Both the position numbers and the translations under genes were made by a program. A DNA stretch of 64,000 nucleotides from an uncultured Verrucomicrobiae bacterium (lineage in GTDB: Bacteria; Verrucomicrobiota; Verrucomicrobiia; Limisphaerales; CAVQOW01), in contig CAVQOW010000010.1 of the NCBI GenBank assembly GCA_963714605.1, positions 55,293-119,292 on the forward strand, read 5' to 3'. Each line of letters opens with the position of its first letter. Positions within the stretch are counted from its first letter, which is position 1. The notes beneath the pieces are model-generated. The model was not told the origin of the DNA. It worked only from the letters and a program-made list of their open reading frames with translations, and did no database searches. Below, piece by piece: positions 3,016 to 62,967 of the stretch.

Positions 3016-4866
<1,851 letters not shown>

Positions 4867-47198: not shown

Positions 47199-48371
47199 TC
47201 AAAAGCCGGTTTGCACGCAGCCCGTGTGTTGCGGGTTTGCCCGAAACATCGGCCAGGAACTTCGGGCGAGCGGTTCAGTTCCTTTGACGGCATACAACCC
47301 TTTGGCGGGATCCCAGCTTAACACGTACACGGTTCCGTCCGGCCCAATGACCGGCGACGAAGCCGACGCGTAAACCAAAAACACATTCCAGAGAAATTTC
47401 CCATCCGGCCCAAGCGCGAAGAGATGGCGGTCGTCTGAGGAAAAGAAGCTGGTCCCGTCCGCTGCAATTGCACCCGACGAGTCAATCTCGTCGCTGGGGG
47501 AGGCTTGCCAGATGGTGTATCGCCACGTCATCCGCCCGTCGCGGGTGATCGCGCAATAATTGCTGTTGATGCCGACATAAATGGTGCCGTCCGGGCCGAG
47601 CACAGGAGAGGATTCCGTGATGCCGCCGGTGTGGAGTTGCCATCGTTTCGTACCGTCAGGATTCAACGCGTAAAATTTGCCGTCCACCGAGGTGAAGTAG
47701 ATCGTGCCTTCGGGGCCGATGGCGGGCGAAGAGATGATTTGTCCGCCGGTTGCAAACTCCCAACGCTTGGTGCCGTCCGGATTCAGCGCGTAAAGTTTTT
47801 TGTCGTGAGAACCGAAATAAATCGCACCGTCCGTTCCGATGGCAGGCGACGAAACGATCGGGCCGCCAGTGGTAAAATCCCATTTTTTGAATCCGTCCGG
47901 CGAAAGCGCGTAAAATTTTCCGTCCCACGAACCGAAATAGATTGTGCCGTCAACACCAAGGGCTGGCGAGGAATCCACCCAGCCGCCGGTTTTGTATTCC
48001 CATTTCTGTTTCCCGTCGGGACGGACCGCATGAAGTTTGTGGTCGCGACACCCGACATAGACCGTTCCGTCGGCGCCGATGGCTGGAGACGATTTCATTT
48101 CAAAGCCAGTGGAAAACGTCCACCGTACCGTCGAGTCCGGATTGATCGCCCAAAGTTTCCCACGGTAGGTCGAAAAGTAAATCACCCCGTTGGTGCCCAC
48201 TGCGGGCGAAGCATCGCTGTAAGGTCCAATTTGAAGCGACCAAAGAATCGTGCCTTCGGGGTGGGCGACGAGGTTGCTGAAAGGCACAAGCAGCAGCCAG
48301 GCGGTCAGGAGAGGAAAGACAGCGTTCAAGTTGAGATGGATGTCATTCCGGCGGCGCGCCGACTTGTTCAT
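47199..48371 (-). CDS. PQQ-like beta-propeller repeat protein (BamB-like), secreted
   Basis: signal peptide; about 8 repeats of ...SSPAIG.DGTIYFGS.DGKLYAL.PDG..KW... Confidence 0.65.
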   Translation of the reverse strand: MNKSARRRNDIHLNLNAVFPLLTAWLLLVPFSNLVAHPEGTILWSLQIGPYSDASPAVGTNGVIYFSTYRGKLWAINPDSTVRWTFSTGFEMKSSPAIGADGTVYVGCRDHKLHAVRPDGKQKWEYKTGGWVDSSPALGVDGTIYFGSWDGKFYALSPDGFKKWDFTTGGPIVSSPAIGTDGAIYFGSHDKKLYALNPDGTKRWEFATGGQIISSPAIGPEGTIYFTSVDGKFYALNPDGTKRWQLHTGGITESSPVLGPDGTIYVGINSNYCAITRDGRMTWRYTIWQASPSDEIDSSGAIAADGTSFFSSDDRHLFALGPDGKFLWNVFLVYASASSPVIGPDGTVYVLSWDPAKGLYAVKGTEPLARSSWPMFRANPQHTGCVQTGF

Positions 48372-48494
48372 GCCCCGAAAGTAAAGTCGTGACGCGCTCA
48401 TTCCGCAATGACAAATCGCAACAGACGGAAATCGCCGCGATTCAAAACGCGGCGCTTGTCAAGGGCCGCCGCCGTCACTAACTTTCGCCCGTCT

Positions 48495-49424
48495 ATGGAA
48501 AGAGTTGTCATCATCGGATCGGGCTGTTCGGGTTGGACAGCGGCGCTGTATGCCGCGCGGTCGAATTTGCAGCCGCTGGTTCTGACTGGCGCGCAGCCGG
48601 GCGGCCTGCTCACAACCACGACCATCGTGGAAAATTTCCCCGGCTTCCCCGACGGCATTGATGGTTACGAACTGATGACCCGGATGCAAAAACAGGCCGA
48701 GCGATTCGGCGCGCGCGCCAAATTCGGCACCGTCGAGGCCGCGGATTTTTCCAAGCGACCGTTTGTCCTGACGGTGGACGGCGAACCGGTGGAAGCCCGG
48801 ACCGTCATCATTGCCACGGGCGCGAGCCATCGCCACCTTGGACTTGAAAGCGAAGCAAAGCTTGAAACCAAAGGCGTGACTTACTGCGCCACATGCGACG
48901 GCGCTTTGCCGGTTTTCCGCAATCAGCCGCTGGTCGTCGTGGGCGGCGGCGATTCCGCGTGCGAAGAAGCGCTTTATCTCACGCGCTTCGGATCGGTGGT
49001 TTATCTCATTCACCGCCGCGATAGTTTGCGCGCCTCCAAGATCATGGCCGGGCGGACGCTCTCAAATTCCAAGATCAAACCGATCTGGGATTCGGTGATG
49101 ACGGAGATCCTCGACGTAAAGCAGGACAAAGTCACGGGCGTGCGTCTGAAAAACTTGAAGACGAATGCTGAAAGCATGTTGGATTGCGCGGGGGTTTTCA
49201 TCGCCGTCGGGCACACGCCGAACACGCAGATTTTCAGAGGGGTGATCGAAATGGACGAAAACGGTTACATCATCCCCAAAAAAGGCACGATGACCAACGT
49301 GTCGGGCGTGTTCGTGGCGGGCGACTGCGCGGACCACGTTTATCGCCAGGCGATCACGGCTGCAGGCGCGGGATGTGCCGCGGCAATCGATGTGGAGCGC
49401 TACTTGGCCGCGCAAAACCAGTAA
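48495..49424 (+). CDS. trxB: thioredoxin-disulfide reductase
   Basis: GSGCSG FAD motif, redox CATC, GGGDSA NADPH motif. Confidence 0.85.
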   Translation: MERVVIIGSGCSGWTAALYAARSNLQPLVLTGAQPGGLLTTTTIVENFPGFPDGIDGYELMTRMQKQAERFGARAKFGTVEAADFSKRPFVLTVDGEPVEARTVIIATGASHRHLGLESEAKLETKGVTYCATCDGALPVFRNQPLVVVGGGDSACEEALYLTRFGSVVYLIHRRDSLRASKIMAGRTLSNSKIKPIWDSVMTEILDVKQDKVTGVRLKNLKTNAESMLDCAGVFIAVGHTPNTQIFRGVIEMDENGYIIPKKGTMTNVSGVFVAGDCADHVYRQAITAAGAGCAAAIDVERYLAAQNQ

Positions 49425-49542
49425 TAAGAACCGCCTGGTACCAGAAGCGGTTTACGTGTCATTGACTTGTCCAGATGGTCCCTTTCGCGGATTTCGTGAA
49501 GACCAAAAGCGGCAGAGCCCGTGTTACTTGATGAGAAGTTGG

Positions 49543-51318
49543 TTAGCTTGGCGTTGGTTTATCCGGTTTGGAATTCAGCATTTTATCCTTCTGCGGCTCA
49601 ACGTCCAATGGATGTTCCTCTTCATGCCAATGCTTCGAGACGCGGCCATCCCAGCAAGCCATATTCAGGGGATACACATCGGGATCAAAAATAACGTGGT
49701 AGAAGTGCCACACAACAATCGCCAGGCACGCCAGAACGGCTTCGTAATAATGAATCGTCAGTGCCACGTCCACCGCCCAGCGCGGCAGCCATTGCGTCAC
49801 GTCCATCTTGAACCAGATCATCAGTCCCGTAATGCCCATGATGATCGTGCCCCACACGACCGCCCAGTATTCCATTTTTTCCGCGTAACCAAATCTGCCG
49901 AGCTTTGGCTTTTCCTTGCTTAACCCGACGAGATAACGAATCGCGGTCCATACATCGGCCAAATCCTTTTTTACGGGGAACAAATCCATCACCAGCTTGC
50001 GCCCGTCCTTTGATGCGAGAATATAAATCACGTGATAAGCGCCGACCGCAAGCAATACAATGCCGGCAATACGATGACTCCAGCGCCGGAACGGTTCGCT
50101 CGAACCGAGCAGCCTCGCCACCCCTGAATCGGGAAACTTCAATGCAAATCCCGTGATCGCCAGCGTGACAAAACTCAAAGCAAGCACCGCATGTTGCCAA
50201 CGCTGCGCAAGGCTCATGCGCAAGACCGGTCTCCCGCTGGAACGCATGTGTGCGCTGACTTTCTTGAGAAACAACAGGAGGTTGTGCACAAACATCGCGC
50301 CAACCACACCGACGATCAGCATCAGATAAATCCGGCGCACCCACCAGTTGATCTGGTCGCCAATATCGGGCCCGCTTTTTGTGGCAGTGATGTCTGTGTG
50401 AATTTTGCCGAAAGCGAATTTCTCGTTGGCGCCGGGATGACATTTCCCGCATGTCTCGACAATATGGGCTTTGTTGATCGTTGAGTCCGGATCGGAGGAA
50501 GGCAGAATTTTGTGATAGCCGTGGCAGCTTGCGCAGTTGGCCGCAACCGTCGAACCGTAAGCAACCGCAAGACCGTGGTAGCTTTCAAAGAAGGTCTGCA
50601 CGCGGTCGGCAGGCAGATTGTACTTGGTATTGATTCGTTCCGACGCATGGCAGCGGCTGCATACGTCCTCGGAAATTTTCAATGAGGAATTCCCGCTCAA
50701 AGCCTGAATCTTGTGCTCCGAATGGCAGTCTGTGCAGGTCGGTGCCTCGCGTATGCCGGCTGCGGTCGCCTGGCCATGCACACTTTTCTCGACGTCGCGC
50801 GCTTCCTTCTCGTGGCACCGGCCGCAAGTTTCCGCAAGTCTGGAGAAGTAGAGTGGCGATTCAGGCGATGTCGGCGGCAGAAGTTCGTGCGAATCGTGGC
50901 AATCCACACACGTGGCCGAATCCAATTTCCCGGCGAGTATCGCCTGACCATGAATGCTTGCACCATAGGTTTCCGACTGCTTTGGGTGGCATTTGGCGCA
51001 AACAACTTTCTGCGCGGGCAGATTGTCGTCGGGATGCGTTGATTTGAGATCCGTGTGGCAGCTCGCGCAGGTATTCGTCCTGTGAACGGAAACTGCAAAT
51101 TTCGCTCCATCCACGAACAAGGAAACCTCTTTTCCCGCCGCGTTGGTCTTCGTGAGCGTTTTGTCGGAGTGACACTCCAGACAGTCGCTGTTCCTCATTG
51201 CATCAGCTGAAGTAACGTTCAGTGCAGCAACGGCTAAAAGGCCAAAAATGCCCTTCGCATTCAGACAGCATTTCGACAATTTCTGCATGACAATTTTCTT
51301 TCGCCTACGGGCCGGCAA
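49543..51318 (-). CDS. CbcL-like fusion: periplasmic 9-haem c-type cytochrome domain plus 5-TM dihaem b-type cytochrome (FdnI/HydC-like) domain
   Basis: nine CxxCH motifs; C-terminal TM helices with conserved His. Confidence 0.65.
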   Translation of the reverse strand: MPARRRKKIVMQKLSKCCLNAKGIFGLLAVAALNVTSADAMRNSDCLECHSDKTLTKTNAAGKEVSLFVDGAKFAVSVHRTNTCASCHTDLKSTHPDDNLPAQKVVCAKCHPKQSETYGASIHGQAILAGKLDSATCVDCHDSHELLPPTSPESPLYFSRLAETCGRCHEKEARDVEKSVHGQATAAGIREAPTCTDCHSEHKIQALSGNSSLKISEDVCSRCHASERINTKYNLPADRVQTFFESYHGLAVAYGSTVAANCASCHGYHKILPSSDPDSTINKAHIVETCGKCHPGANEKFAFGKIHTDITATKSGPDIGDQINWWVRRIYLMLIVGVVGAMFVHNLLLFLKKVSAHMRSSGRPVLRMSLAQRWQHAVLALSFVTLAITGFALKFPDSGVARLLGSSEPFRRWSHRIAGIVLLAVGAYHVIYILASKDGRKLVMDLFPVKKDLADVWTAIRYLVGLSKEKPKLGRFGYAEKMEYWAVVWGTIIMGITGLMIWFKMDVTQWLPRWAVDVALTIHYYEAVLACLAIVVWHFYHVIFDPDVYPLNMACWDGRVSKHWHEEEHPLDVEPQKDKMLNSKPDKPTPS

Positions 51319-51325
51319 TACCAGA

Positions 51326-53475
51326 TCAATGCGCCAAACGCGAAACCATTGCGTAAATGATCAGGATGAGCAGGATGACCCCAAGGCCGAAGAAGAAATA
51401 GCCAAAGGAGCGGGCGATGTTTTTCCAGCTCTCCCATTCGTCTTTGACGCGATGTTTGTCCAATCGGCCATCGGTCACGAGCCGGTCGTACCAACGTTTG
51501 CGGTCGTGAAGCATCTCGGTCTTCGAGATGCGACCGGAGAAGATGACCGTGTCCATCGGGAATTTTTCGATGCGGAAATGCGTGTTGAAGAAATGAATCG
51601 AGAAGATGAAGCCCGCCGCCAGCAATGCCTCGTCCGAGTGGATGATAAGCGCGATGTTGATGACCCAGCCCGGCAGAAATTTCGTGAAGAATACCGGAAA
51701 CCACATGATTAAACCCGACGTGCCTATGATGGCGACGCCCCAAAAGACGGCAAAGTAATCGAATTTTTCCCAATACGTCCAGCGGTCGAACATCGGTTTC
51801 CCGCCCTTGCCGAAAAACCATTTGTTGTGCGCAACGAAATCGCGCCAGTCCTGCCACGTCGGCATCATCGAATCCGGGCCAAACAAAACGCTCCACAAAC
51901 GTTTCAATTGCAACCTGCCGCTTGCAGGGTCGCGCAACCTGCTCTTGCCCTTCCATGCCTTGCCGATGAGCGACGCGACATGCAGACCGAAGTAAAGGAA
52001 CGTGATAATCGCGCCGAAGCGATGCAGCGTGCGCGCCGTTTCTGCGCCACCGATGACGTTGAAAAGCGCTTTGGCCCAGTCGGTGTAATAAAATTTGAGC
52101 GGCATGCCCGTGATGACCAGCAGCAGAAAGCTGGTCACAACCAGAAAATGCAGGAAACGCTCGAACGGCACGAAGCGCGTGAACCATTCGTCGTCTTCCT
52201 CAGTGCGCACCTTCGCCTCGCGGAATGTCTTCGTGTCGTGCAGATATAAATAAAACGCGCGGAACAGCCAGACGAGGGTGTGCAGTCCGAAAAACGTGAA
52301 CACACCAATCAGCAAGCCGGTCATGCCCAGAAAAACCGCGTGGAGGACCGGATAATTTTTCCCATCGAGCGGATTAGCGTGCGGCCGGTATTGCGTGAAA
52401 CCAATCGTCGCGCCCGGATGACATTGCTGGCATGTGGCCAGAATATTGGTTTTGGAAAGACGCGAACCCGGGTCTGATTGCGGCAGCACGTCGTGATAAC
52501 CGTGGCAGTCGTAACACGCGGCTACCGCCGGGGCTGCGTTCGGTTTGCCCAGCGCCATCGCCTTGCCGTGATACGTTTCGCGGTAGTGTGCCAGGCGGTC
52601 TTCGTGACATTTGCCGCACCGCTGATCGCTGATGGCCTTGAAGTTGTTGCCTTCGGGGTTCTCGATTTGGTGCGCCGTGTGACAGTCCGTGCAAACGGGC
52701 CCGCGCTTGTCGCCTTTGGCCAGAAGCTGCCCGTGGACGCTTTGATTGTAGGTTTCCTCGATGCCGACGTGGCACTTGCCGCAGGTCTTGGCGACGTTGG
52801 CGTGATTGATGGGTGAATCGCGATCCACGCCTCGTTTGATATCGTGGACACCATGGCAATCGTTGCACGACGGCGCGACAATGAGGCCCATCTTCAATAG
52901 CGCCTGCCCGTGGATGCTGTCCATGTATTGTGCCGCGGCCTCGGGATACTTCATTTCGTATTCCTTCGTTAGCCCCGGGTTGCTGTGACATTTCGCACAG
53001 GTCTGCGGCAGGTTGAGCTTGAACACCGGCGAGTTGGGATTTTTCACCGGCAAAATGTCATGCGAACCGTGGCAGTCGCAGCAATTGGCTGCGCCGGAGG
53101 CGTCCCAATGTATGACTCACACCGTGAATACTACCGGCGTAGTCCTCGGCCTCTTTCTCGTGGCAACCGACGCAATTCGGCGGCGGCAGTTTGCTTTCAT
53201 GAACGAGGTCTTTGATGCCCGTGTGACAATCCTGACACGACAGTTTGGCGTGAACCGACTTCGCAAATTGGTTCGTCGGAAAAACAGCCATTGGCACACT
53301 CTGCCCGTTGACCTTTCGCGAATTGCCCGGATCGGTATGGCAGTCGAGGCAGTCGGCGTTGGCGAATTTTTCCCCCGCGGGCTTTGGAAAATTGGCTGAA
53401 GCCAATGCACAGCAGCAAAGAGAAAATGACTTTGCACAATTTCCCCGGTGAAACGCGTGTTGTGGCCGGATTCAT
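51326..53475 (-). pseudogene. second CbcL-like multihaem c / cytochrome b fusion; frame breaks near 53060 and 53385
   Basis: signal peptide in one frame (KVIFSLLLCIGFSQFSKA), about 10 CxxCH across frames, b-type membrane domain in ORF 51326..53053. Confidence 0.6.
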
Positions 53476-53486
53476 AATCAATCCGT

Positions 53487-54968
53487 TCAGAACCCGCCCG
53501 TGTGACAATCGTTGCATGCCCCATCGACTTCATCCCCGGGATGTTTGAATTTCTGCCCGGCCGGGCTTAACAAATTGAGTTCTTCACCGCTGCCCTGCGC
53601 AAGAATGGTGTGGCAGGTGTTGCAATCGCTGGCCTTGATGCTGTGTTTGCCATCGGCGGTCATGTGCTTGCCGTCGTGACAGCGGAAACAGCCGGGCCAG
53701 TCCTTGTGCCCGATGTCGTTGGGATACTTGTCCCACGAAGCGTTCATTTCCGGGAAGAAGTTGTTTGTATAGATTTGTTGGACGGCATCAATGGCGGGTT
53801 TGATGCGCGGCTCGTCGGGATATTGTCGGGCGAGATGCGTGGCGATGCTTTGCAGCGCCTGAATTTCATTCGTGTACTTGCAGGTAAGCGTGTAAACCGC
53901 ATTCGTTTTGATCCACTTCAGATTCCGGTCAATCTTGCCCAGCGAAATCGCGAGGTCCACGGCATCGTTCGGTGATTGGTAGGTGTGCGACGGGCGATTG
54001 TGGCAGTCCATGCAATCCACCGTGCGAATCTGGCTTTCGGCGACGGTGTTGGTGAAAGTCTTCGTCCGGTATTCCGTGACGACGCCTTGTGCGTCCACAA
54101 CGCGCACCCATGGAATGGTCTGCCGCGCCTCGTCCGTGGCCACATACTGCACCTTGTTGCCGACGTTCATGTGCCAGTGAATGCCGCCCACCGGGCCGTG
54201 CGTCGGGTCGCCACCGCCGACTTTCATTGTCAGGCGGACGGAAAAAGGCGTGTTGGTTTCATCGCCGAGGAAATAGTTGTACGTCTTGTCGAGATTGCCG
54301 ACGAATTTCTTTGGCCAGTGACATTGCTCGCAAGTTTCCTGGGCGGGCCGCAGATTCTTGATCGGTGTCGGTATGGGCCGCGGATACTTGTTGAACGCCA
54401 CCGCATAAACCTGATACAAGCCGGAAATTTTGGCTTTGACGAACCATTCCGCGCCCGGGCCGATGTGACATTCCACACAAGCCACCCGCGCGTGCGGGCC
54501 GTGTTGATACGTCACAAGTTCCGGCTTCATCACTGTGTGACAGGCCTGGCCGCAAAACTGCACGGACTCGCTGTAATGATACGTGTGGTAGCTCAACACC
54601 GCTGTCACCAGCAGAAACAGCGCGCTCGCAACGAGAAAATAACCGAGCAATTTGCGGTCGCGCGGGCGGGCAAGATCAATTTGAAAAGCGGGAAGCGTCT
54701 CGGCGGCCAAGCCGGCCTTGTGCGCCTTGCGTCGGACCAGAAGGATGCCGAGCAATGTCAGCCCGCAACCGAGAAACAGGAACATCGGCGCGACGAGATA
54801 CGTGAGAATGCCGATGTACGGGTTCGAGAAATGCGCAAGCGAATCAACCAGCGAGAGAAGAATAAAGGCAAAGAGACTGCTCGCAACGAGCAGAATTCCC
54901 GACAGGCTCAGCCAGTTTCGGAAAATGCCCAGACGCGGCCCTCGTTGAGGCGCGGATTCTGTGCTCAT
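53487..54968 (-). CDS. ImcH-like membrane-anchored 7-haem c-type cytochrome (3 N-terminal TM helices)
   Basis: seven CxxCH motifs; 493 aa. Confidence 0.55.
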   Translation of the reverse strand: MSTESAPQRGPRLGIFRNWLSLSGILLVASSLFAFILLSLVDSLAHFSNPYIGILTYLVAPMFLFLGCGLTLLGILLVRRKAHKAGLAAETLPAFQIDLARPRDRKLLGYFLVASALFLLVTAVLSYHTYHYSESVQFCGQACHTVMKPELVTYQHGPHARVACVECHIGPGAEWFVKAKISGLYQVYAVAFNKYPRPIPTPIKNLRPAQETCEQCHWPKKFVGNLDKTYNYFLGDETNTPFSVRLTMKVGGGDPTHGPVGGIHWHMNVGNKVQYVATDEARQTIPWVRVVDAQGVVTEYRTKTFTNTVAESQIRTVDCMDCHNRPSHTYQSPNDAVDLAISLGKIDRNLKWIKTNAVYTLTCKYTNEIQALQSIATHLARQYPDEPRIKPAIDAVQQIYTNNFFPEMNASWDKYPNDIGHKDWPGCFRCHDGKHMTADGKHSIKASDCNTCHTILAQGSGEELNLLSPAGQKFKHPGDEVDGACNDCHTGGF

Positions 54969-55104
54969 ATCAAATTGTTTGATTCACTGTGTCCGCCTGC
55001 AATGCGACCCGCGGAAATAAAACACCCCGCTCCCGGCAGGTGAATGCGGGCACCAAACGCCTACCGCGTCAAATGACTGCAACCGCAATGGGAAACTCTT
55101 GGAC

Positions 55105-55434
55105 TTACTTCTTGAACGTCCGCATGTAAGCCACGAGACCCTTGATGTCGTCGTCGGAAAGGCCATCGGACGGCTTCATCAACGTTTTGCCGTCCTTGTC
55201 CTTCAGACCTTCCTTGATGGCTTTGAACGCGGCATCGTCTTTCAACTCAGCCTGGACTTTGGCGTCGGTGTAATCCTTGATACCGAGCTTGCTGCCCATC
55301 TTCGTGTCGCCTTTGCCGTCGGCACCGTGGCATTTGGCACAGTCCTTGGTGTAGTTTTCCTTCGCGTCTGCCGCGCTCGCGGACAAGGCCGAAGTTATGA
55401 TCATTGCGCAACCGAGTATTAACAGCTTTTTCAT
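55105..55434 (-). CDS. secreted class I monohaem cytochrome c
   Basis: signal peptide, single CAKCH, downstream Met ligand. Confidence 0.7.
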   Translation of the reverse strand: MKKLLILGCAMIITSALSASAADAKENYTKDCAKCHGADGKGDTKMGSKLGIKDYTDAKVQAELKDDAAFKAIKEGLKDKDGKTLMKPSDGLSDDDIKGLVAYMRTFKK

Positions 55435-55725
55435 ACGTGTTTCAGATTTTACTAGATACGATTTCATCTACATTTATTCGACAGATCGTTGGCTGGCATG
55501 CAGTCCGCCCTCACACTTAAAGTGTCAAACGAATCACTGCGCCTTGGCCACAATCTTATTCTCGTGACGCTGATGATGGCTGACAGTTCCAATCTTGGCA
55601 AAGGATAAACATTTATTGGCGGGCTTCGAGGCGCAACTTGACACTATCACCAGCCACATAGTGGCTCGACATGAATGGCGGTGGCGCGAAATTGCGCCCC
55701 GGCTTCCGCCGCCGGTTCATCGGGC

Positions 55726-56172
55726 TTATTTTTTCAACCGATAGAACCAGTTGCCCGTGGGTGGAGTGATGGTGACGCTCTTGGTCGTGCCGTCATCGTT
55801 GATTGTGCCGCCGTAAGCTGACCAGCCGTTGGTGTTGGACAAATCGGTGTTTTGTTGCAGCACAAAATCGGCGGAAGGTGACGGCCATGAGACGATGACG
55901 TCCTCGCCGCTGTGCGTGACGGTGAGCAACGGTGCGCCGGGCGTTTGCACGGCGGCGATGAGACTCCAGAAACCGCCGTCCAAAGAATAACTGCCACCGC
56001 TCATGGTTGCACCCGCGTCCGGCTGGCCGATAGTGCCGCTGACGGAATACACGCCACCAGTGCTTGTACAGCCACCACCGTCAATCGTGGACCAGTCAAT
56101 CGAATAGTTCTGCGCTGTGGCGCGAAGGCAGAAGGCAGAAGTAAGAATGAAGAAACAAAACCTCGCCAAGGG
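55726..56172 (-). CDS. small secreted protein ending in a conserved about 70-aa C-terminal domain shared with the giant beta-helix protein
   Basis: probable TTG start with signal peptide; C-terminus ...VSWPSPSADFVLQQNTDLSNTNGWS...TITPPTGNWFYRLKK. Confidence 0.4.
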   Translation of the reverse strand, partial: PLARFCFFILTSAFCLRATAQNYSIDWSTIDGGGCTSTGGVYSVSGTIGQPDAGATMSGGSYSLDGGFWSLIAAVQTPGAPLLTVTHSGEDVIVSWPSPSADFVLQQNTDLSNTNGWSAYGGTINDDGTTKSVTITPPTGNWFYRLKK

Positions 56173-56235
56173 CGAAAAATTCGTGCGGCAACATTTCCGG
56201 TTGTCAGCCCGCCCGTCAGCGGGCAGCTTGCGGAC

Positions 56236-56418
56236 ATGAGAAACCGCTACACGGCCGTGGTCCAGCGGGGTGGCAAATGGTTCATCGCCTTCCGCCCGGA
56301 AGTGCCGGAAGCCAACGGACAGGGCAAGACCCGAGAGGAATGTCTCGAAAGCCTGTCCACCGCAATTGAACTGGTTCTGGACTACCGGCGCGAGCATCGC
56401 CGCGCCGCTTTCCTTTGA
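56236..56418 (+). CDS. HicB-like antitoxin (60 aa), preceded by a degenerate 30-aa HicA-like ORF (56147..56239)
   Basis: MRNRYTAVVQRGGKWFIAFRPEVPEANGQGKTREECLESLSTAIELVL; upstream MKKQNLAKGEKFVRQHFRLS... Confidence 0.4.
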   Translation: MRNRYTAVVQRGGKWFIAFRPEVPEANGQGKTREECLESLSTAIELVLDYRREHRRAAFL

Positions 56419-56449
56419 CTTGCCGCTGCTTCTTCCGTATTCTACTTCC

Positions 56450-56653
56450 ATGATCGCCGTTGAAGAACGCCGCTTAAAAGGTCTGCTCAAAAGCGCTGTT
56501 GCGGAAGTCTTGGAGGAGCACCGCGACGTGCTGCGCGACGCCGTCCGCGAAAGTCTCGAGGATGTGGCCCTGATCCGCGCCATCCAACTCGGCGAAAAAA
56601 CTCCCCTCATCAGTCGCCGGAAAATCTTCCAAAGGCTCGAACGCGCGGCGTGA
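56450..56653 (+). CDS. putative antitoxin partner of the downstream RelE/ParE toxin
   Basis: 67 aa; 4-nt overlap with the toxin gene. Confidence 0.45.
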   Translation: MIAVEERRLKGLLKSAVAEVLEEHRDVLRDAVRESLEDVALIRAIQLGEKTPLISRRKIFQRLERAA

Positions 56654-56916
56654 ACACGCGCTTTCGGGAATCGTTTGACCGGGATCTGTCCGCCCTGACC
56701 GATGCCAGATTGCTGCGGCGAATCAAGCAGGTGCTTGAACAGGTGGAGGCCGCCCGCACTTTCCAGCAGATTCCCAACCTCAAGCGTCTTGACGCCAGGG
56801 GTAAATACTACCGCATCCGCGTGGGCGATTATCGAGTGGGCTTTGTCTTCGAGCATGGCGCGGTCACGTTCGTCCGCTGCCTCGACCGCAAGGAAATTTA
56901 CCGCTACTTTCCCTGA
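56650..56916 (+). CDS. RelE/ParE-family toxin
   Basis: ...GKYYRIRVGDYRVGFVFEHGAVTFVRCLDRKEIY. Confidence 0.7.
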   Translation: MNTRFRESFDRDLSALTDARLLRRIKQVLEQVEAARTFQQIPNLKRLDARGKYYRIRVGDYRVGFVFEHGAVTFVRCLDRKEIYRYFP

Positions 56917-57204
56917 ACTCCGGCGCGGTTGAAGCGGTGCCCCGCCATGCGGAGATTGGAAAACACCTTTCCCGCAAAATCTGTCGCCAACTTTCGGTGC
57001 CCGTACCTGCGGGAGCTTGACGGCGCTTTCAGAAAGCGACAAGTCTCCGCATTCCAAGACGCTGTGCACCTTCCGTCCGCCGTCTGCCAGCTTTGAGGTT
57101 CGCATTTTCATTTTGCAACTCCGCTGTTTTCTCTCACGACTGCCACAAGGCAGCCGCAAAATTGTAAAATTCATTTTTGCTTTTCATTGTGGTCAGTGCT
57201 GAAG

Positions 57205-58302
57205 CTAAAAAGCAAAGTTGGCCCACGGATTGGTGATGCTGAATGCAGGCCCGGGCGTACTAATTATCTGACCGTATGCTGTGTCACCGGCACCTGTAAC
57301 ATCAAAATCAAATCCACCGTTGCCCTTCGCGGTGTTGCGCACGATGAAGTTTCGGTGAGCGGTATTATCCACCAGAATTCCACGAAATAAATTGGTCACA
57401 ACATGGTTGCCGTCAATGCGGTTATTGTCACCTCGGGCATGGATGCCGGCGAAGGTGGCGTTGTTGGTTACGCCGTTGCCAGTGCAGGTGTTCCCAAGAA
57501 CCTGGCAGTTATTAAACACGACAATGCCATCGCCGCCGTTGTTGTTCGCCGTGCAGTCTTTTACGGTGCAGGCGTCATCTGTGAAAATGCCTGCGTAGCC
57601 ATTCCAACCATTGGCATCAACCAAACAGTCTGTGACGACGGACCTTTTTCCCACCATTATTCCGTTCTGATAGTTGGTCTGCGCTACGCAATTCTTAATC
57701 ATCACGCCGTTCCCGTTCGCCGCCAGAATGCCGTTGCCATTGTTGGTCCTCACAACGCATTCAACGACAAGACAGCCATCCTGCACTGCAATTCCGTTAT
57801 GATTTCTCTCAGCCACGCAATTTTTCACCGCGCTACCGGGGCCGATGTTTAATTCAGAGACGGCGTTGTCGGAAGCTCGCAACTGCTCGAATTGGCCGTT
57901 GCTCCAATAGACTGATTGAATGCCGTTTCGCCAGGAGCGTAAGGTGCCGTTGCGAACGCAGAGATTTCTCCCGCCGTTGGCATCCGCAGAAATGCCATCC
58001 AGCGCACCGGAGATGCCGGTCATGACGAAACCATTCAGATCCAGCGTCACATCGCTCGCGAAGATCGTAATTCCGTTTGTGCCGGCGACACCGATGAGAT
58101 TGGCGGTCAAATAATACGAGCCGGAGTTGGTGATATTGATCGGCAATGATGAAATGGGTGTGCGCGGTTGAATTTGGTCAAGCGTCTTCATAGTCGGCCC
58201 GGGCGGTCCCACTGGCGTGAGACTGCCTTGAGCCATTACCTGCATGCTGTTGCTGGCCAGCGCAATTACGCAGACCATTTGGATAAGGTGCTTCCTGTTC
58301 AT
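57205..58302 (-). CDS. secreted parallel beta-helix repeat protein (paralog A)
   Basis: signal peptide; N/G/T-rich beta-helix repeats. Confidence 0.6.
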   Translation of the reverse strand: MNRKHLIQMVCVIALASNSMQVMAQGSLTPVGPPGPTMKTLDQIQPRTPISSLPINITNSGSYYLTANLIGVAGTNGITIFASDVTLDLNGFVMTGISGALDGISADANGGRNLCVRNGTLRSWRNGIQSVYWSNGQFEQLRASDNAVSELNIGPGSAVKNCVAERNHNGIAVQDGCLVVECVVRTNNGNGILAANGNGVMIKNCVAQTNYQNGIMVGKRSVVTDCLVDANGWNGYAGIFTDDACTVKDCTANNNGGDGIVVFNNCQVLGNTCTGNGVTNNATFAGIHARGDNNRIDGNHVVTNLFRGILVDNTAHRNFIVRNTAKGNGGFDFDVTGAGDTAYGQIISTPGPAFSITNPWANFAF

Positions 58303-58337
58303 AAGGTGTCTTTCTTAAAATTAGACGTCTTAACTTT

Positions 58338-59417
58338 TCAAGGCATGTTGTATTTGTTGGCAACATTCAGGGCCGGACTCCCGGTTCCAACACAAGTATT
58401 GGCGATGGTGGCAGAAAGCCCTGTGCCACTGGAACTCTGCCCATAGCAGGAGTTGGCGACGTTGGCGGCGAGCCCGGTTCCGGTAGATGAAGCCCCGGTG
58501 CAGCCGGTTGCAATGCAGAAGGCGTTCAGTCCGATACCGCTGGAACTTTGCCCATAAGAACCAGTAGCGCTGGTCGCGAATAAACCGGTGTTTGTGGAAC
58601 TGATTCCATAGCAATTGTTGGCAACACCCGAAGATATACCCACCCCATTGACACTATAGCCACGGCAGTTGTTTGCCGTGGTGGCGTAAAGTCCATAGCT
58701 GTTGGAACTATATGCGTAGCAATTATCGGCGTTGGCAGTGTTTATACCGACATTTCTAGCACTGAAATTGGCGCAGTTTAATGCGGTGGATGAGTTGATG
58801 CCGGTATCTCCACAATTTATCACCGTTGAACCGCTTACCGATTGAGCAATAATTCCTGTGCCTCCAACCGTGTTGACGTTGCAGGACTCGACAATCGTCG
58901 AGGAAACGGTGAAAAGGTGGATTCCATTACTCAGGCATCCGGAAACAGAAACATGTGATACCCGCACGTTCGTGGGATTGCCGCCGGAATAGTAGATGCC
59001 ATAGCCGAAGCCGCTACCGCTATAGACGCCGGAATTATTGGTAACCCCGCCTGTGATAAAACCGTTAAAAATCGTGATATTTGCACGGCCACCGGCCAGC
59101 AAAATGCCCGTACCAGCGGCAGCAGGCGTGGTGGATAATATCGTGAAACCATTTAAATCCAGGCTGACATTGTTGGTGACGATGGTGATGCCATCGCCCG
59201 AACTGACGTTGATGTTGGTGATTAAATAATATGACCCGGAGTTTGTGATATTGATTGGCGCAGATGAAATGGGTGTGCGCGGTTGAATTTGGTCAAGCGT
59301 CTTCATAGTCGGCCCGGGCGGTCCCACTGGCGTGAGACTGCCTTGAGCCATTAACTGCGCGCTACTGCCGACCAGCGTAATTACGCAGACCGTTAAGCCG
59401 AGTTGTTGCTTGTTCAT
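58338..59417 (-). CDS. secreted beta-helix repeat protein (paralog B), N-terminal 55 aa nearly identical to paralog A
   Basis: 5' 135 nt about 92% identical to 58168..58302; divergent C-terminus. Confidence 0.6.
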   Translation of the reverse strand: MNKQQLGLTVCVITLVGSSAQLMAQGSLTPVGPPGPTMKTLDQIQPRTPISSAPINITNSGSYYLITNINVSSGDGITIVTNNVSLDLNGFTILSTTPAAAGTGILLAGGRANITIFNGFITGGVTNNSGVYSGSGFGYGIYYSGGNPTNVRVSHVSVSGCLSNGIHLFTVSSTIVESCNVNTVGGTGIIAQSVSGSTVINCGDTGINSSTALNCANFSARNVGINTANADNCYAYSSNSYGLYATTANNCRGYSVNGVGISSGVANNCYGISSTNTGLFATSATGSYGQSSSGIGLNAFCIATGCTGASSTGTGLAANVANSCYGQSSSGTGLSATIANTCVGTGSPALNVANKYNMP

Positions 59418-59429
59418 AAACGTCTCTTT

Positions 59430-62400
59430 CTATTTCATCAACCTAAAAAATAAATTCCCCGTGGGCGGACTGATGAGAATGCTCTTGATCGTGCCATTGT
59501 CGCCGGGCGTGTCGCCGCAAGGCGACCAGCCGTTCGGGTTGGCGAGGTTGCTGTTTTGCTGCAACACAAAACCCGTGGACTGTGACGGCCAGGAGAGAAT
59601 GACGTTCGCGCCAGATAAGACCACGCTCAACGTCGGCGGTGGCAGCGGCGCTTCATACGCGCCGATGTCCACGTGCGCGCCAATTTGCCGGGACTGACCG
59701 CGTTGGTCGAAAATTACAAAAGGAGAGGAGGTCAGCACCACATCATCGCCTGCATCAATGGCCGGACTGCCGGTTAGCAACGCCATCGTCGGCGTCGGGC
59801 CGCCGTTGTCCTGCAACGGGCCAAGCAGCGGGTTGAGCGGCGCATTGGTGCTGCCCATCAAATTGCTCGCCAGCCAGCCGCTGCTGCCGTTGGTCGCGCC
59901 GATGAGGTTGTAGCCGGCGATCAAGATCGTGCCGCTGACATCCGGGCTGCCGCCACCGCTGTTGGCGGCGATGATGGTGTTGATGAAGCCTGCCACGTTC
60001 GTGAAAGTATAAACCCCGCCGCCCAGCGTCTGACCCAGCGCACCGTCGTTGCCGTAAATGAAACCGCCATCACCATCAGCGACCACGGCACCGGCCCCGC
60101 CAAAGCCGCCCACCGCCGTGTTGCTGCTCACGGTGCAATCATACAGCGTCAGAATGCCGAGATTCTCAATCGCGCCGCCCGTGCCATCGCCGCCGTTGCC
60201 GCCGTTGGCGGGCGGATACACCGCCGCACCATCGCCGCCGAACCCGCCGTTGACGGTGTTGCCCCAGAAGGTGCAGTTCACCGTATCCACCCGGCCCGCG
60301 TTGTAAACCGCGCCGCCCGCCGCAAATCCACCGTTGCCGCCATCAAATGGATTGGAAGAAAAAATGCCATCCGCGCCCTGCGCGCCAATGGCGGCATTGG
60401 TCTGGAACGTGCAGCCGTAAAGCCACAGGTGCCCGCCGTTGTAAATCGCGCCGCCCGCCGCACCCCAGCCCGGACAAGCCGGGCAGGAAGCCGCGCCGCC
60501 GCCGGCCACATTGCCGCGCAGGATGCAATTGGTGAGATTCAAGTTTCCCAGAGTGAAAATGCCGCCGCCCTGACCGTCGCTGCCCGGTGCGCCCGCGTTC
60601 CGGCCATTGGCGATGGTCAAACCGGAAATGCCCGCCGTGACGCCGCTGGCGATGTTGAAGACCCGGTTGGAGTTGTTGCCGCTGACCATCAGGTTCGTTG
60701 CGCCGAGGCCGATGATGGTTATGTTATTGCCAATCGCTACCTCGCCGTTCGTTAAAACGATGTCTCCGTTGACAGCAAAGCTGAGCGTGTCGCCGGATTG
60801 AGATGCTGATACAAGGTCGCGCAAAGTGCCAGGCCCATGGTCGTGGAGGTCGGAAACCATGAGAAAAAGCGGCCCATATTCATAAGCCCCGATGTCCACG
60901 TGCGCGCCTTTATCACGGGGCTGTCCTCGCTGATCGGTTGTCAAACTGGTCGGGGCGTTCATCACACTGTCATCCCCGGCGTCAATTGCCACGCTGCCGG
61001 GAAGCAGGGCAAGAGTCGGCGTGGGGCCACTGTTATTTTGCAGAGGTCCCAACGATGGATTCAACGGAGTTCCAATTACCCCGTGCTGATCAGTTCCCGT
61101 CCAGCCGCTGCTTCCGTTTGTCGCGCCGATGAGATTGTGTCCCTGACTCGTAAATGTTCCGCCGACATCTGGACTCGATCCAGTATTTCCAGCGACGAGA
61201 GTATTCCAAATGGTGACGGTTCCGCCCGGAGACATGTGAATCCCTCCGCCCAGCGCCGTTCCGTTTGTTCCATTGAGAGCTTGAGTTGGCGGCCCAACTT
61301 GGGAACCACCCGTCCCTCCATTGCCGAGAGTCGTGGTGTTGTTTGCAATGGTGCAGTTGATCAAAGTGCAACTACCGGATGTCTCGATTGCTCCGCCGAG
61401 ACCGCTACCGCCATTGCCCCCTTTTCCTCCCGGACCATAACTTCCACCGGACCCGCCATTCCCACCGGCTCCGCCTTGGGCGTTATTACCGGAAAACGTG
61501 CATTTCAGGGCAGTCATCGCTCCACTGTTGTAAATTGCGCCGCCCGCCGCCGTCGAGCCGGGAGTTCCATCACCCGCCGGCGAGTAAGTTCCTGTAGCAT
61601 TGACTCCAGAAGACCCAATGCTTCCTGTCAGCGAATTCCCGCTGAAGGCGCAGCCGATCAGTCGCAGGGTGCCTGTATTCAATATCGCTCCGCCGCGTGG
61701 TCCCCAACCTTGTTCCGAGTTTCCAGTAAAGATACAGTTGGAGACGGTTAAATTGCCGCCGTTTGCGATGCCCGCGCCGCCTGTAGGAAAGCCGCTCTCA
61801 AAGCCGCTGGAGATCGTAAGACCGGAAAGGCTGCTGGTCGCTCCGAGTGATGTGACAAAAATCTGGCAGGCATTGTTGCCGCTGATTGTTAGATTGGTTG
61901 TTCCTGATCCGATGATTGCGATGTTTCGGACAATCGCCAACGGGCCGCTCACAGTGAGAGTTCCCGTCAAACCGGGAGTGAAGTTGATTGTGTCGTCAGA
62001 AGCAGCTATCGAGAGCAGATACCGTAGTGTGCCAGGTCCGTTATCGGCCAGCGATGTGACGATGAAGGTTGCTGGCGATGTGCCGAACGCAACGTCGGGA
62101 CCGTAGTTCGTCTCCGAGCCAGTGTGCCGCACAACTCTAAAGTGATACCAAAACCCTTGTGAAAGTCCCGACAGGACGGCACTGACCGGGACAGACGAGG
62201 TTCCGCTTCCTATATCTACAACGGTTGTCGTGTTGCCGCAACTCGTGGTCTGTCCCCACTCAAACCACGCTGTGCTGGATACACCGCCGGGGAGGACGCT
62301 GCCATTCAGGGTTGCGCTGGTGGCGGAGATGGCCGTCGCAGGCAGGGTGAAAACATTCGCGACGTAAAAGTTGAGAGTGAACCCTTGAACCTCGTAACCC

Positions 62401-62945: not shown

Positions 62946-62967
62946 GGGCTGAATCTTTTGTTTCGAA

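What the first reader, a model, noticed from the sequence alone, without database searches (positions are those of the whole stretch)
49543..55434. Geobacter-type inner-membrane quinol-oxidising cytochrome set: two tandem CbcL-like fusions, an ImcH-like 7-haem protein and a monohaem cytochrome c
Four adjacent minus-strand genes: a 3-TM, 7-CxxCH membrane cytochrome (ImcH-like); two paralogous proteins each combining about 9 CxxCH haem sites with a C-terminal 5-TM dihaem cytochrome-b domain (CbcL-like); and a small class-I cytochrome c. In Geobacter these architectures feed electrons from the quinone pool to periplasmic and extracellular acceptors at different redox potentials. Their co-localisation here suggests a capacity for extracellular or periplasmic electron transfer (metal/mineral respiration?) not usually associated with this kind of genome.
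Basis: partly seen in the sequence, partly recalled or inferred. Interest (0 to 1): 0.6.

Follow-up and report, generated by a model that had tools for sequence, protein, structure and literature searches.

The report
Verrucomicrobial ImcH and CbcL-type cytochrome operon
This is a four-gene operon for inner-membrane cytochromes that pass electrons from the membrane quinone pool to the periplasm; the families are known from Geobacter and the operon is common in this bacterial group (Limisphaerales), so it is real but ordinary.

Summary
Four adjacent minus-strand genes encode a monohaem cytochrome c, an ImcH-family protein, and two paralogous proteins that fuse a multihaem c domain to an FdnI-like dihaem cytochrome b.

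Corrections:
- The upstream fusion has 11 haem motifs and 6 TM helices, not about 9 and 5.
- In this assembly it is split over three frames by two 1-nt insertions. These are probably assembly errors, because rpoD and rseP in the same window are also frameshifted.

ImcH membership was tested directly. The protein is 42% identical (E 2e-132) to a Geobacter sulfurreducens-clade ImcH recovered with published GSU3259 primers. All seven haem motifs and the five named quinol-site residues align. CbcL-family membership rests on architecture, the four b-haem histidines, and haem spacing matching verrucomicrobial homologues already catalogued in 2018.

The claim that this is unusual for such a genome fails. 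The window is from a Limisphaerales (Verrucomicrobiota) MAG, at least 593 species representatives carry an ImcH relative, and the gene order is conserved. PVC-group ImcH homologues were noted in 2014. Cultured Limisphaera carrying the orthologous pair respire Fe(III) (2026). No outer-membrane conduit or terminal reductase lies in the window.

Verdict: new member of a known kind; low to moderate interest.

The parts
55105..55434 (-). Monohaem class-I cytochrome c (109 aa from M12; the ORF is open to 55467). It has a Sec signal peptide, and His (CAKCH, residue 43 of the 120-aa ORF) and Met97 as the likely axial ligands.
   Evidence: PF00034 at 48.9 bits and PF13442 at 42.1 bits. Orthologues are 109 aa. 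CxxCH and Met97 are each conserved at 90% or more across 89 copies in related loci. A copy lies within 600 nt upstream of imcH in 42 of 75 readable loci.
53487..54968 (-). ImcH-family inner-membrane hepta-haem cytochrome (493 aa). It has 3 TM helices, CX3CH at 139 and CX2CH at 164, 213, 319, 427, 449 and 485.
   Evidence: PF03264 (NapC/NirT region) at 38.6 bits against a cut-off of 24.1. 42% identity, E 2e-132, over residues 14-492 to the Geobacter-clade ImcH in L089. E134, H144, K180, Q186 and Y195 align with E127, H137, K173, Q179 and Y188.
51326..53475 (-). CbcL/MtrH/MtoC-family fusion. It comprises a signal peptide, 11 c-haem motifs, a 5-helix FdnI-like dihaem cytochrome b and an extra C-terminal TM helix (715 aa once repaired). 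In this assembly it is broken by two 1-nt insertions.
   Evidence: tblastn of the intact 715-aa orthologue matches two frames, at 83% over 591 aa and 61% over 102 aa. DNA alignment with L004 and L001. Reconstruction gives haems at 42, 80, 101, 131, 159, 203, 231, 261, 286, 320 and 348. Six TM helices. The haem spacing differs by one residue in the first interval from Opitutus terrae Oter_2603 in Zhong & Shi Table S2.
53372..53391 (-). Frameshift site 1. One extra base in a T4 run (53388-53391) or a G5 run (53372-53376), between the signal peptide and the first haem motif.
   Evidence: Frames read directly. Comparison with L004, 'LSQPAGAAEKFKNSEC'. The repair restores 'FSQFPKPAGEKFANADC'.
53100..53106 (-). 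Frameshift site 2. One extra base: the window reads 'GGGACGCC' where the orthologues read 'GGG-GGC' or 'GGG-CGC'.
   Evidence: DNA alignment. The repair restores 'HTLGASGAANCCDCH', matching 'HKMGASGAANCWDCH' of L001.
49543..51288 (-). CbcL/MtrH/MtoC-family fusion (581 aa from M11; the ORF is open to 51318). It comprises a signal peptide, 9 c-haem motifs and a 5-helix FdnI-like dihaem cytochrome b, with no C-terminal TM helix.
   Evidence: 9 CxxCH. PF01292 at 64.6 bits against a cut-off of 30.1. Aligns to E. coli FdnI 1kqf_C at E 2e-08, with all four haem-ligand His positions matched. H366, H405, H513 and H528 are invariant in 41 homologues. Foldseek's top hit is 1kqf_C, from a weak model.
55573..55601 (-). 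Sigma-70-like promoter match upstream of the cytochrome c gene. Weak.
   Evidence: 9 of 12 matches. The number of such sites in the region is not above chance.
49429..49452 (-). Hairpin about 90 nt downstream of the last gene; a possible terminator. Weak.
   Evidence: the number of terminator-like sites is not clearly above the shuffles.

Best explanation
The locus is a four-gene operon, with gaps of 136, 11 and 37 nt. It gives a Limisphaerales bacterium three parallel menaquinol oxidases and a small periplasmic carrier.

Shown:
- One protein is a true ImcH-family member.
- The other two are paralogous members of the CbcL/MtrH/MtoC architecture. Each has a periplasmic multihaem c domain fused to an FdnI-type four-helix dihaem cytochrome b behind an extra N-terminal helix.

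Inferred by homology:
- ImcH oxidises menaquinol at a site on the periplasmic face beside haem 1. That haem has the CX3CH motif, His144 and Gln186, with E134, K180 and Y195 nearby. ImcH releases the protons to the periplasm (electroneutral) and wires the electrons through seven haems.
- The two Cbc fusions oxidise menaquinol at the cytoplasmic-side site of the FdnI fold. They pass electrons outward across the membrane through two b haems to the 9- or 11-haem periplasmic wire. The membrane potential assists this step, which suits lower-potential acceptors.
- The co-transcribed His/Met monohaem cytochrome c is the likely first soluble acceptor.

Most likely role (inference): anaerobic respiration of periplasmic or extracellular acceptors of differing redox potential, such as Fe(III) and humic quinones, as in Geobacter and as now seen in cultured Limisphaera.

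The two frameshifts in the 11-haem gene are most likely assembly errors.
For: - Operon layout and ORFs.
- ImcH membership: 3 TM helices, CX3CH plus 6 CX2CH. Haem spacing is 25, 49, 106, 108, 22, 36, against 25, 49, 106, 117, 20, 38 in the Geobacter-clade protein. Identity is 42%, E 2e-132, with E127, H137, K173, Q179 and Y188 all aligned. E134, H144, K180 and Q186 are invariant in 41 homologues.
- The reference L089 matches three published GSU3259 primers at 20/20, 16/17 and 18/20 bases, at the expected places.
- Cbc fusions: Pfam and NCBIfam FdnI/HydC hits, four b-haem His aligned to 1kqf_C, and paralogy at E 1e-80. The 11-haem/6-TM pattern is nearly the same (one residue apart in the first interval) as four verrucomicrobial proteins listed as CbcL/MtrH/MtoC homologues.
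- Mechanism of ImcH (electroneutral, P-side site, donates to periplasmic cytochromes) and the proposed N-side site of CbcL: bioRxiv 10.1101/2023.05.03.539133.
- Potential windows in Geobacter (CbcL at or below -0.10 V, ImcH above): PMC5322298 abstract.
- Conserved linkage of cytochrome c, imcH and the fusions across Verrucomicrobiia, and in another order in Acidobacteria.
- Limisphaera sp. 4302-co carries ImcH (62%) and the 11-haem orthologue (73%) side by side. That strain and strain VF2 respire ferric citrate and ferrihydrite, and MK-7 is their only quinone.
- Assembly-error reading of the frameshifts: rpoD is broken about 3 times and rseP once in the same window.
Against: - No function was tested for any verrucomicrobial homologue. 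The Limisphaera paper has no genetics linking these genes to Fe(III) reduction.
- The window holds no porin-cytochrome conduit, no other multihaem cytochrome and no terminal reductase, and the rest of the genome could not be read.
- A His/Met class-I monohaem cytochrome is typically high-potential and points as readily to oxidases or periplasmic reductases. Geobacter ImcH did not interact with the monohaem PccH.
- Direct comparison with Geobacter CbcL (GSU0274) was not possible. The haem spacing of its first four haems differs (23, 25, 23, 24 against 38, 23, 30, 28).
- The 9-haem fusion has 5 TM helices, not 6.
- If the frameshifts are real, one of the three oxidases is dead.
- Both AlphaFold models were poor (pLDDT 57.5 and 56.2).
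Confidence: 0.6

Rival explanations
1. The same proteins act as a general menaquinol:cytochrome c oxidoreductase hub. They feed periplasmic or aerobic terminal enzymes (cbb3/caa3 oxidases, NrfA, nitrite or NO reductases, peroxidases) through the monohaem cytochrome c. No electrons leave the cell.
For: - The co-transcribed carrier is a class-I His/Met monohaem cytochrome, with generic similarity to cbb3-associated and c6/c551-type cytochromes.
- Paralogous copies precede other quinol-oxidase modules (4-haem cytochrome + FeS protein + NrfD) in relatives.
- Limisphaera species lack a bc1 complex, use MK-7 only, and have caa3, cbb3 and NrfAH.
- No outer-membrane conduit lies in the window.
- The related NapC/NirT protein CymA serves many periplasmic reductases.
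Against: - Limisphaera already has alternative complex III for the aerobic chain.
- ImcH and CbcL are regarded as among the best markers of extracellular electron transfer.
- Relatives carry large multihaem cytochromes and beta-barrel genes next to the cluster.
- Geobacter ImcH haems are low-potential, -150 to -358 mV.
Confidence: 0.25
2. The module runs in reverse. It takes electrons from an extracellular or periplasmic donor (Fe(II), reduced humics) through the cytochrome c and the Cbc fusions into the menaquinone pool, as proposed for MtoC in iron oxidisers.
For: - CbcL/MtrH/MtoC homologues occur in both Fe(III) reducers and Fe(II) oxidisers, with no sequence feature that tells them apart.
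- A high-potential monohaem cytochrome is typical of iron-oxidation chains (own knowledge).
Against: - ImcH homologues have so far been found only in Fe(III) reducers.
- The only cultured relatives tested are organoheterotrophs that reduce Fe(III) and do not grow lithoautotrophically.
- No Cyc2 or MtoAB lies in the window.
Confidence: 0.07
3. The database labels are right: the proteins are a NrfH/NapC subunit of a nitrite or TMAO reductase and gamma subunits of formate dehydrogenase.
For: JGI and NCBI name the homologues 'nitrate/TMAO reductase-like tetraheme cytochrome c subunit', 'formate dehydrogenase gamma subunit' and 'NapC/NirT family cytochrome c'. There are partial NCBIfam hits to NrfH and FdnI.
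Against: - All these hits fall far below the curated cut-offs: NrfH 58.5 against 134.2 bits; Fdh-gamma 62.7 against 115.85; FdnI 43.3 against 339.
- The hits cover only one sub-domain of each protein.
- No NrfA, FdnGH, TorA or NapAB gene is adjacent in the window.
Confidence: 0.03
4. The 11-haem gene is a genuine pseudogene, so the cluster is decaying in this organism.
For: There are two independent 1-nt insertions relative to every orthologue examined. One of them is not in a long homopolymer.
Against: - The essential primary sigma factor rpoD carries about three frameshifts and rseP carries one in the same 64 kb, so indel errors are general in this assembly.
- Outside the two sites the gene is 83% identical to its orthologue over 591 residues, with no stop codons or missing motifs.
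Confidence: 0.07

Closest known systems
ImcH (GSU3259) of Geobacter sulfurreducens, an inner-membrane hepta-haem menaquinol oxidase required for acceptors above about -0.1 V
   Same: - Three N-terminal TM helices.
- First motif CX3CH, followed by six CX2CH with nearly the same spacing.
- A NapC/NirT-like region.
- E127, H137, K173, Q179 and Y188 all conserved.
- 42% identity over the whole length to a G. sulfurreducens-clade orthologue.
   Different: - 493 aa against 507 aa, with a 9-residue shorter stretch between haems 4 and 5.
- imcH is monocistronic in Geobacter. Here it sits in an operon between a monohaem cytochrome c gene and two Cbc fusions.
- Function is untested in any verrucomicrobium.
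CbcL (GSU0274) of G. sulfurreducens and the CbcL/MtrH/MtoC family (Zhong & Shi 2018)
   Same: - An N-terminal periplasmic multihaem c domain fused to a HydC/FdnI-like dihaem cytochrome b.
- The b-haem histidines are conserved.
- The 9-haem count of the downstream gene equals that of CbcL.
- The 6-TM topology of the upstream gene equals that of CbcL.
- The spacing of the last five haems (30, 25, 42, 28 here) resembles CbcL (29, 28, 43, 28).
   Different: - The spacing of the first four haems differs.
- One paralogue has 11 haems; the other has only 5 TM helices.
- There are two tandem copies, linked to imcH.
- Direct sequence comparison with GSU0274 could not be made.
Verrucomicrobial homologues already catalogued: Opitutus terrae Oter_2603 and Oter_2584, Lacunisphaera limnophila, Opitutae bacterium Tous-C1TDCM and Verrucomicrobia bacterium ADurb.Bin118 (PMC6295460, Tables S2 and S3)
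   Same: - The 11-haem/6-TM fusion has nearly the same haem spacing: 38, 21, 30, 28, 44, 28, 30, 25, 34, 28 here, against 37, 21, 30, 28, 44, 28, 30, 25, 34, 28 in Oter_2603.
- The ImcH spacing matches Oter_2584.
   Different: - In O. terrae the two genes have non-adjacent locus tags (Oter_2584 and Oter_2603).
- The 9-haem/5-TM paralogue type was not among the verrucomicrobial entries in that table.
The 'two inner membrane MHCs' cluster of Limisphaera vallis 4302-co (PMC13608581, 2026)
   Same: - Orthologous ImcH (62% identity) directly followed by the 11-haem fusion (73%).
- Same order, Limisphaerales.
- The organism respires ferric citrate and ferrihydrite.
   Different: - That locus lacks the upstream monohaem cytochrome c and the 9-haem paralogue within 10 kb.
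- It has an OEP efflux-protein gene downstream.
- The link between these genes and iron reduction is only proposed there.
E. coli formate dehydrogenase-N gamma subunit FdnI (PDB 1KQF chain C)
   Same: The four-helix dihaem b core. All four haem-ligand histidines align. It is the top structural match.
   Different: - FdnI is a stand-alone subunit that receives electrons from FdnGH and reduces menaquinone.
- Here the domain is fused to a periplasmic multihaem wire behind an extra helix, and presumably runs in the opposite direction.
- The scores are far below the NCBIfam cut-offs.

Membership tests
ImcH family | Three N-terminal transmembrane helices | tested here: met
   Hydropathy peaks at 23-41, 58-76 and 107-125. 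GSU3259 has TM helices at 13-35, 45-67 and 100-122.
ImcH family | An atypical CX3CH first haem motif next to TM3, followed by six CX2CH | tested here: met
   CGQACH at 139, then CX2CH at 164, 213, 319, 427, 449 and 485. The feature is described.
ImcH family | A NapC/NirT-homologous region covering TM3 and the first haems | tested here: met
   PF03264 at 38.6 bits (cut-off 24.1), residues 105-195.
ImcH family | Full-length sequence homology to Geobacter ImcH (published range to non-Geobacter homologues 31.5-49%) | tested here: met
   42% identity over residues 14-492 of 493, E 2e-132, against the 507-aa protein of L089. L089 carries the GSU3259 haem fingerprint and matches three GSU3259 primers. 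L089 is a close relative of strain PCA, not PCA itself.
ImcH family | Conserved haem-1 ligands and quinol-site residues (H137, Q179, E127, K173, Y188 in G. sulfurreducens numbering) | tested here: met
   H144, Q186, E134, K180 and Y195 align without gaps. The first four are invariant in 41 homologues. The residues are named.
ImcH family | Menaquinol oxidation, and requirement for high-potential extracellular acceptors | not testable with these tools
   Needs genetics or biochemistry.
CbcL/MtrH/MtoC family | An N-terminal periplasmic multihaem c domain (9 CX2CH in CbcL; 3-23 across the family) | tested here: met
   9 motifs in 49543-51288 and 11 in the repaired 51326-53475. Both have signal peptides.
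CbcL/MtrH/MtoC family | A C-terminal HydC/FdnI-like dihaem cytochrome b domain with conserved haem-ligand histidines | tested here: met
   PF01292 at 64.6 bits for the 9-haem gene. For the 11-haem gene it scores 29.7 bits against a cut-off of 30.1, on the 575-aa fragment ORF (51326-53053) that was scanned. Four His align to FdnI and are invariant. The same four are aligned in the paralogue.
CbcL/MtrH/MtoC family | Six predicted TM helices (most members) | tested here: inconclusive
   The 11-haem paralogue has six and the 9-haem paralogue has five. The published family tolerates 4-6.
CbcL/MtrH/MtoC family | Sequence homology to GSU0274, MtrH or MtoC (28.6% or more within the family) | not testable with these tools
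The link is indirect: haem spacing nearly identical to four verrucomicrobial proteins that the family's authors list as homologues.
NrfH (nitrite reductase quinol dehydrogenase) | Score above the TIGR03153 cut-off; four haems; one TM helix; adjacent nrfA | tested here: not met
   58.5 bits against a cut-off of 134.2. The protein has seven haems and three TM helices. No NrfA-like gene is in the window.
Formate dehydrogenase gamma subunit (FdnI/FdoI) | Score above the equivalog cut-off; a stand-alone ~210-aa subunit next to fdnGH | tested here: not met
   TIGR01583 at 62.7 against 115.85 bits; NF007558 at 43.3 against 339 bits. The domain is fused to a multihaem domain, and no molybdopterin subunit is nearby.

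The most novel reading that the evidence does not exclude
The conserved operon (monohaem cytochrome c, imcH, 11-haem cbc, 9-haem cbc) may be a single co-regulated quinol-oxidase hub, possibly physically associated. Its gene linkage recurs in many Verrucomicrobiia and, in a different order, in Acidobacteria. In relatives, paralogous monohaem cytochromes also head the neighbouring cytochrome + FeS + NrfD modules.

In these menaquinone-only bacteria that lack bc1, such a hub would act as a potential-spanning substitute for complex III. The monohaem cytochromes would be dedicated carriers that route electrons either to oxidases or to outer-membrane conduits. That would differ from Geobacter, where imcH and cbcL are unlinked (imcH monocistronic) and both constitutively expressed, and where triheme Ppc cytochromes are the carriers.
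Probability: 0.15. Interest if true: 0.55.

Novelty: new member of a known kind. Interest (0 to 1): 0.27.

Why it matters
ImcH and CbcL-type genes are among the most dependable genomic markers of extracellular electron transfer. Their presence marks this uncultured Limisphaerales bacterium as a candidate Fe(III) or humic-substance respirer. That fits the first demonstration, in 2026, of dissimilatory iron reduction in the phylum.

Practical value:
- Public pipelines label these proteins 'NapC/NirT', 'nitrate/TMAO reductase subunit' or 'formate dehydrogenase gamma', so the annotation can be corrected.
- The contig is flagged as indel-prone.
- The locus points to a cultured relative, Limisphaera vallis 4302-co, in which the role of the gene pair can be tested genetically.

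It does not reveal a new kind of system.

Tried and rejected
- **AlphaFold2 models.** The ImcH-like protein (pLDDT 57.5) and the 9-haem fusion (pLDDT 56.2) were too poor for fold inference. The only usable result was FdnI as the top PDB match.
- **AlphaFold-database Foldseek library.** It was not available, so named Geobacter structural neighbours could not be obtained that way.
- **Fetching Geobacter ImcH by sequence search.** I screened the 150 best 50%-cluster representatives for the GSU3259 haem fingerprint. I looked up ten clusters and spent the third homology search on P0301, which turned out to be a Vicinamibacteria protein. All of these failed.
- **What worked instead.** I scanned metagenome contigs for a published GSU3259 primer.
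- **PDB sequence search.** It gave no ImcH relative. For the fusion it gave only FdnI and an unidentified 278-aa 'cytochrome c', 28pb_A.
- **Promoter and terminator scan.** Not above chance.
- **Rfam.** Nothing in 48000-57500.
- **NrfH, TorC and formate-dehydrogenase-gamma readings.** Considered and rejected on curated cut-offs and the lack of partner genes.
- **My own provisional guess corrected.** I first guessed that the 1082-aa ORF after the Limisphaera pair was the RND pump. It is a Laminin_G/Ig-domain protein, and only an OEP gene is within the locus.

Full report
**What is in the sequence**

Between 49543 and 55467 the minus strand carries four cytochrome genes in a row.

- The first is a small class-I cytochrome c with one CAKCH motif and PF00034 at 48.9 bits. 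Its likely start is M12 at 55434, which gives 109 aa as in its orthologues.
- The second is a 493-aa protein (53487-54968). It has three N-terminal hydrophobic helices, one CxxxCH motif (CGQACH, residue 139) and six CxxCH motifs.
- The fourth is a 581-aa protein (49543-51288; the ORF is open to 51318). It has a signal peptide, nine CxxCH motifs, five hydrophobic helices and a clear PF01292/FdnI-type cytochrome b domain.
- A six-frame scan of the other 58 kb (ORFs with two or more motifs, or 80-200-aa ORFs with one) flagged only one other ORF, so the cluster is not a chance pattern.

**The third gene is broken in this assembly**

The upstream one is not a single ORF here.

- Its signal peptide (from ATG 53475), a three-haem piece (53058-53405) and an eight-haem + cytochrome b piece (51326-53116) lie in three frames.
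- An intact 715-aa orthologue from a related contig aligns to the window in two frames, at 83% identity over 591 residues and 61% over 102.
- DNA alignment with two orthologues places one extra base near 53103 and another within 53372-53391.
- Removing one base at each site gives a 715-aa protein with eleven CxxCH motifs and six hydrophobic helices. The length equals that of the orthologues.

The same window also has about three frameshifts in the essential primary sigma factor rpoD and one in rseP. Indel errors are therefore general in this contig. I read the two insertions as assembly artefacts, with a small residual chance (about 0.07) that the gene is a real pseudogene.

The two fusions are full-length paralogues (30% identity, E 1e-80). 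Judged by haem spacing, the 11-haem protein is the 9-haem pattern with one extra two-haem insert.

**Whose genome**

- The exact proteins come from one unannotated 127.5-kb NCBI/ENA contig.
- In a scan of one genome per species, the closest loci are Limisphaerales and other Verrucomicrobiia MAGs, with up to 81% identity for the ImcH-like protein.
- Both main proteins have thousands of homologues at about 70% identity or more in metagenomes.
- The ImcH family has 768 clusters at 50% identity with E of 1e-30 or better.

**Is it ImcH?**

The published definition is three TM helices, a NapC/NirT-like region, a first motif CXXXCH and six CXXCH (PMC4251993; PMC6295460). All of these are met.

To test homology directly I needed a Geobacter sequence.

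- I took primer 3259KHis1 from Levar et al. and scanned the metagenome contigs for it.
- Locus L089 encodes a 507-aa protein with CX3CH at 132 and CX2CH at 157, 206, 312, 429, 449 and 487. This is the GSU3259 pattern of Zhong & Shi Table S3, whose CX2CH positions are zero-based.
- It has E127, H137, K173, Q179 and Y188, as described for G. sulfurreducens ImcH.
- It also matches two other GSU3259 primers at 16/17 and 18/20 bases, at the stop and just upstream of the start. It is therefore a G. sulfurreducens-clade orthologue.

The window protein aligns to it over residues 14-492 at 42% identity, E 2e-132. The alignment is ungapped through the quinol-site region, so E134, H144, K180, Q186 and Y195 match the five named residues. 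All seven haem motifs align. Four of the five residues are invariant in 41 verrucomicrobial homologues. Membership is established.

**Are the fusions CbcL-type?**

- They have the defining architecture: a periplasmic multihaem c domain fused to a HydC/FdnI-like dihaem cytochrome b.
- All four FdnI haem-ligand histidines align and are invariant.
- FdnI is the only meaningful structural match, although the model is weak.
- I could not obtain GSU0274 itself.
- The 11-haem/6-TM protein has nearly the same haem spacing as Opitutus terrae Oter_2603, with one residue of difference in the first interval. It has the same 11-haem/6-TM design as three other verrucomicrobial proteins that Zhong & Shi list as CbcL/MtrH/MtoC homologues.
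- Against Geobacter CbcL, the last five haems are similarly spaced but the first four are not. The 9-haem paralogue lacks the sixth helix.

I file both as members of the broad family, with the direct comparison to CbcL untested.

**What it is not**

- The NrfH, TorC and formate-dehydrogenase-gamma hits behind the public annotations fall far below the curated cut-offs.
- The flanking genes are trxB, a BamB-like propeller, a ParDE toxin-antitoxin pair and beta-helix proteins.
- No Nrf, Hao, Otr, Fdh, Nap or Tor catalytic gene is nearby.

**Conserved context**

- The order cytochrome c, imcH, 11-haem cbc, 9-haem cbc recurs exactly in a JGI contig and in many species representatives.
- Among the 80 best loci, a cytochrome c copy lies within 600 nt upstream of imcH in 42 of 75 readable cases.
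- The 11-haem gene follows imcH directly in 22 of 63.
- The 9-haem gene lies within 3 kb after it in 10 of 15.
- Acidobacterial loci have cytochrome c, then a cbc-like gene, then imcH.
- Relatives often add two modules of a 4-haem cytochrome, an FeS protein and NrfD, plus further large multihaem cytochromes and beta-barrel genes. None of these is in this window.

**How it most likely works**

The following is inferred by homology.

- ImcH oxidises menaquinol at a periplasm-facing site beside haem 1 and releases the protons to the periplasm. It passes electrons down seven haems to a soluble acceptor.
- The Cbc fusions use the FdnI fold. In E. coli Fdn-N the quinone site lies at the cytoplasmic face next to the inner b haem (own knowledge of the 1KQF/1KQG work). 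The loop before the third core helix is strongly conserved here, with E470, K471, E473, Y474 and W475 invariant.
- Menaquinol oxidation at that site would send electrons outward through two b haems, helped by the membrane potential. This has been proposed for CbcL and would favour lower-potential acceptors.
- In Geobacter the CbcL route works at or below -0.10 V and the ImcH route above it.
- The co-transcribed monohaem cytochrome, with conserved CxxCH and Met, is the obvious first acceptor.

**Physiological destination**

This is the weakest step. In favour of metal or humic respiration:

- ImcH and CbcL are considered among the best markers of extracellular electron transfer.
- Porin-cytochrome clusters have been described in bog Verrucomicrobia.
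- Limisphaera sp. 4302-co carries the orthologous ImcH + 11-haem pair. That strain and strain VF2 respire ferric citrate and ferrihydrite with MK-7 as their sole quinone.

That paper only proposes the link, without genetics. A His/Met monohaem carrier fits equally well with delivery to oxidases or periplasmic reductases. I give this rival 0.25.

**Novelty**

- ImcH homologues in the Planctomycetes-Verrucomicrobia-Chlorobi group were noted in 2014.
- One ImcH and four CbcL homologues in Verrucomicrobia were tabulated in 2018.
- cbcBA homologues in uncultivated Verrucomicrobia were mentioned in 2021.
- Iron reduction in the phylum was shown in 2026.

The locus is therefore a new member of a known kind. 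What may not have been spelled out before is the conserved operon linking a monohaem cytochrome c, imcH and two cbc paralogues. This contrasts with the monocistronic imcH of Geobacter.

Noticed in passing
window 3016-4866 (+): The primary sigma factor gene rpoD is split. Regions 1.1 and 1.2 and regions 2-4 are in the same frame, but the stretch between them reads through two other frames, implying about three frameshifts. Because the gene is essential, this points to indel errors in the assembly.
   Followed up: partly
window 42856-44246 (+): The site-2 protease gene rseP (Peptidase_M50 + PDZ) is split by a frameshift inside the PDZ domain at about 43614.
   Followed up: partly
window 56270-56916 (+): A RelB-like antitoxin and a ParE toxin pair sit between the cytochrome operon and the beta-helix protein genes. 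An overlapping 168-aa ORF (55912-56418) has no Pfam match.
   Followed up: partly
window 55726-63080 (-): Two beta-helix proteins (57205-58302 and 58338-59417) share a near-identical ~60-aa N-terminus. A small ORF ending at 55726 and the 1216-aa protein (59430-63080) share a ~65-aa C-terminal domain ('SWPS.S..FVLQQN...NGWS...GT.KS..I.PPTGN.F.RL.K'). This may be a lineage-specific sorting or anchoring domain.
   Followed up: no
L001 1336-8111; L004 365-7010; JGI 1.85-Mb contig: In relatives, upstream of the cytochrome c + imcH genes lie two modules of a 4-haem cytochrome, a 4Fe-4S protein and NrfD. The first module is preceded by a paralogous monohaem cytochrome c. One NrfD is fused to a cyclic-nucleotide-binding domain. 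The window lacks these modules.
   Followed up: partly
JGI 1.85-Mb contig; L002 16660-18153: Beta-barrel genes flank the cluster in two relatives: BBP2 directly after the 11-haem gene, and Alginate_exp after an NrfD module. They might be outer-membrane partners.
   Followed up: no
L009, L010, L034, L043, L047, L048, L049: The record titles of several MAG contigs that carry Verrucomicrobia-type imcH loci read 'uncultured Bifidobacterium sp.', 'Bifidobacteriaceae' or 'Akkermansia muciniphila'. The taxonomy labels look wrong.
   Followed up: no
window 47199-48401 (-); L002 7783-9012: A BamB-like PQQ beta-propeller gene lies near the cytochrome cluster both in the window and in a distant relative. 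This could be coincidence or a conserved neighbour.
   Followed up: no
PDB 28pb_A: An unidentified 278-aa 'Cytochrome c' chain matches haems 1-6 of the 9-haem domain at E 1.4e-15. It may be the nearest solved structure for this type of haem domain.
   Followed up: no
L077 9940 onward (+): In a deltaproteobacterial MAG, one stop-free reading frame of 1176 codons spans the imcH homologue and the following cbc-like gene. This is either a possible ImcH-Cbc fusion or a missed stop.
   Followed up: no
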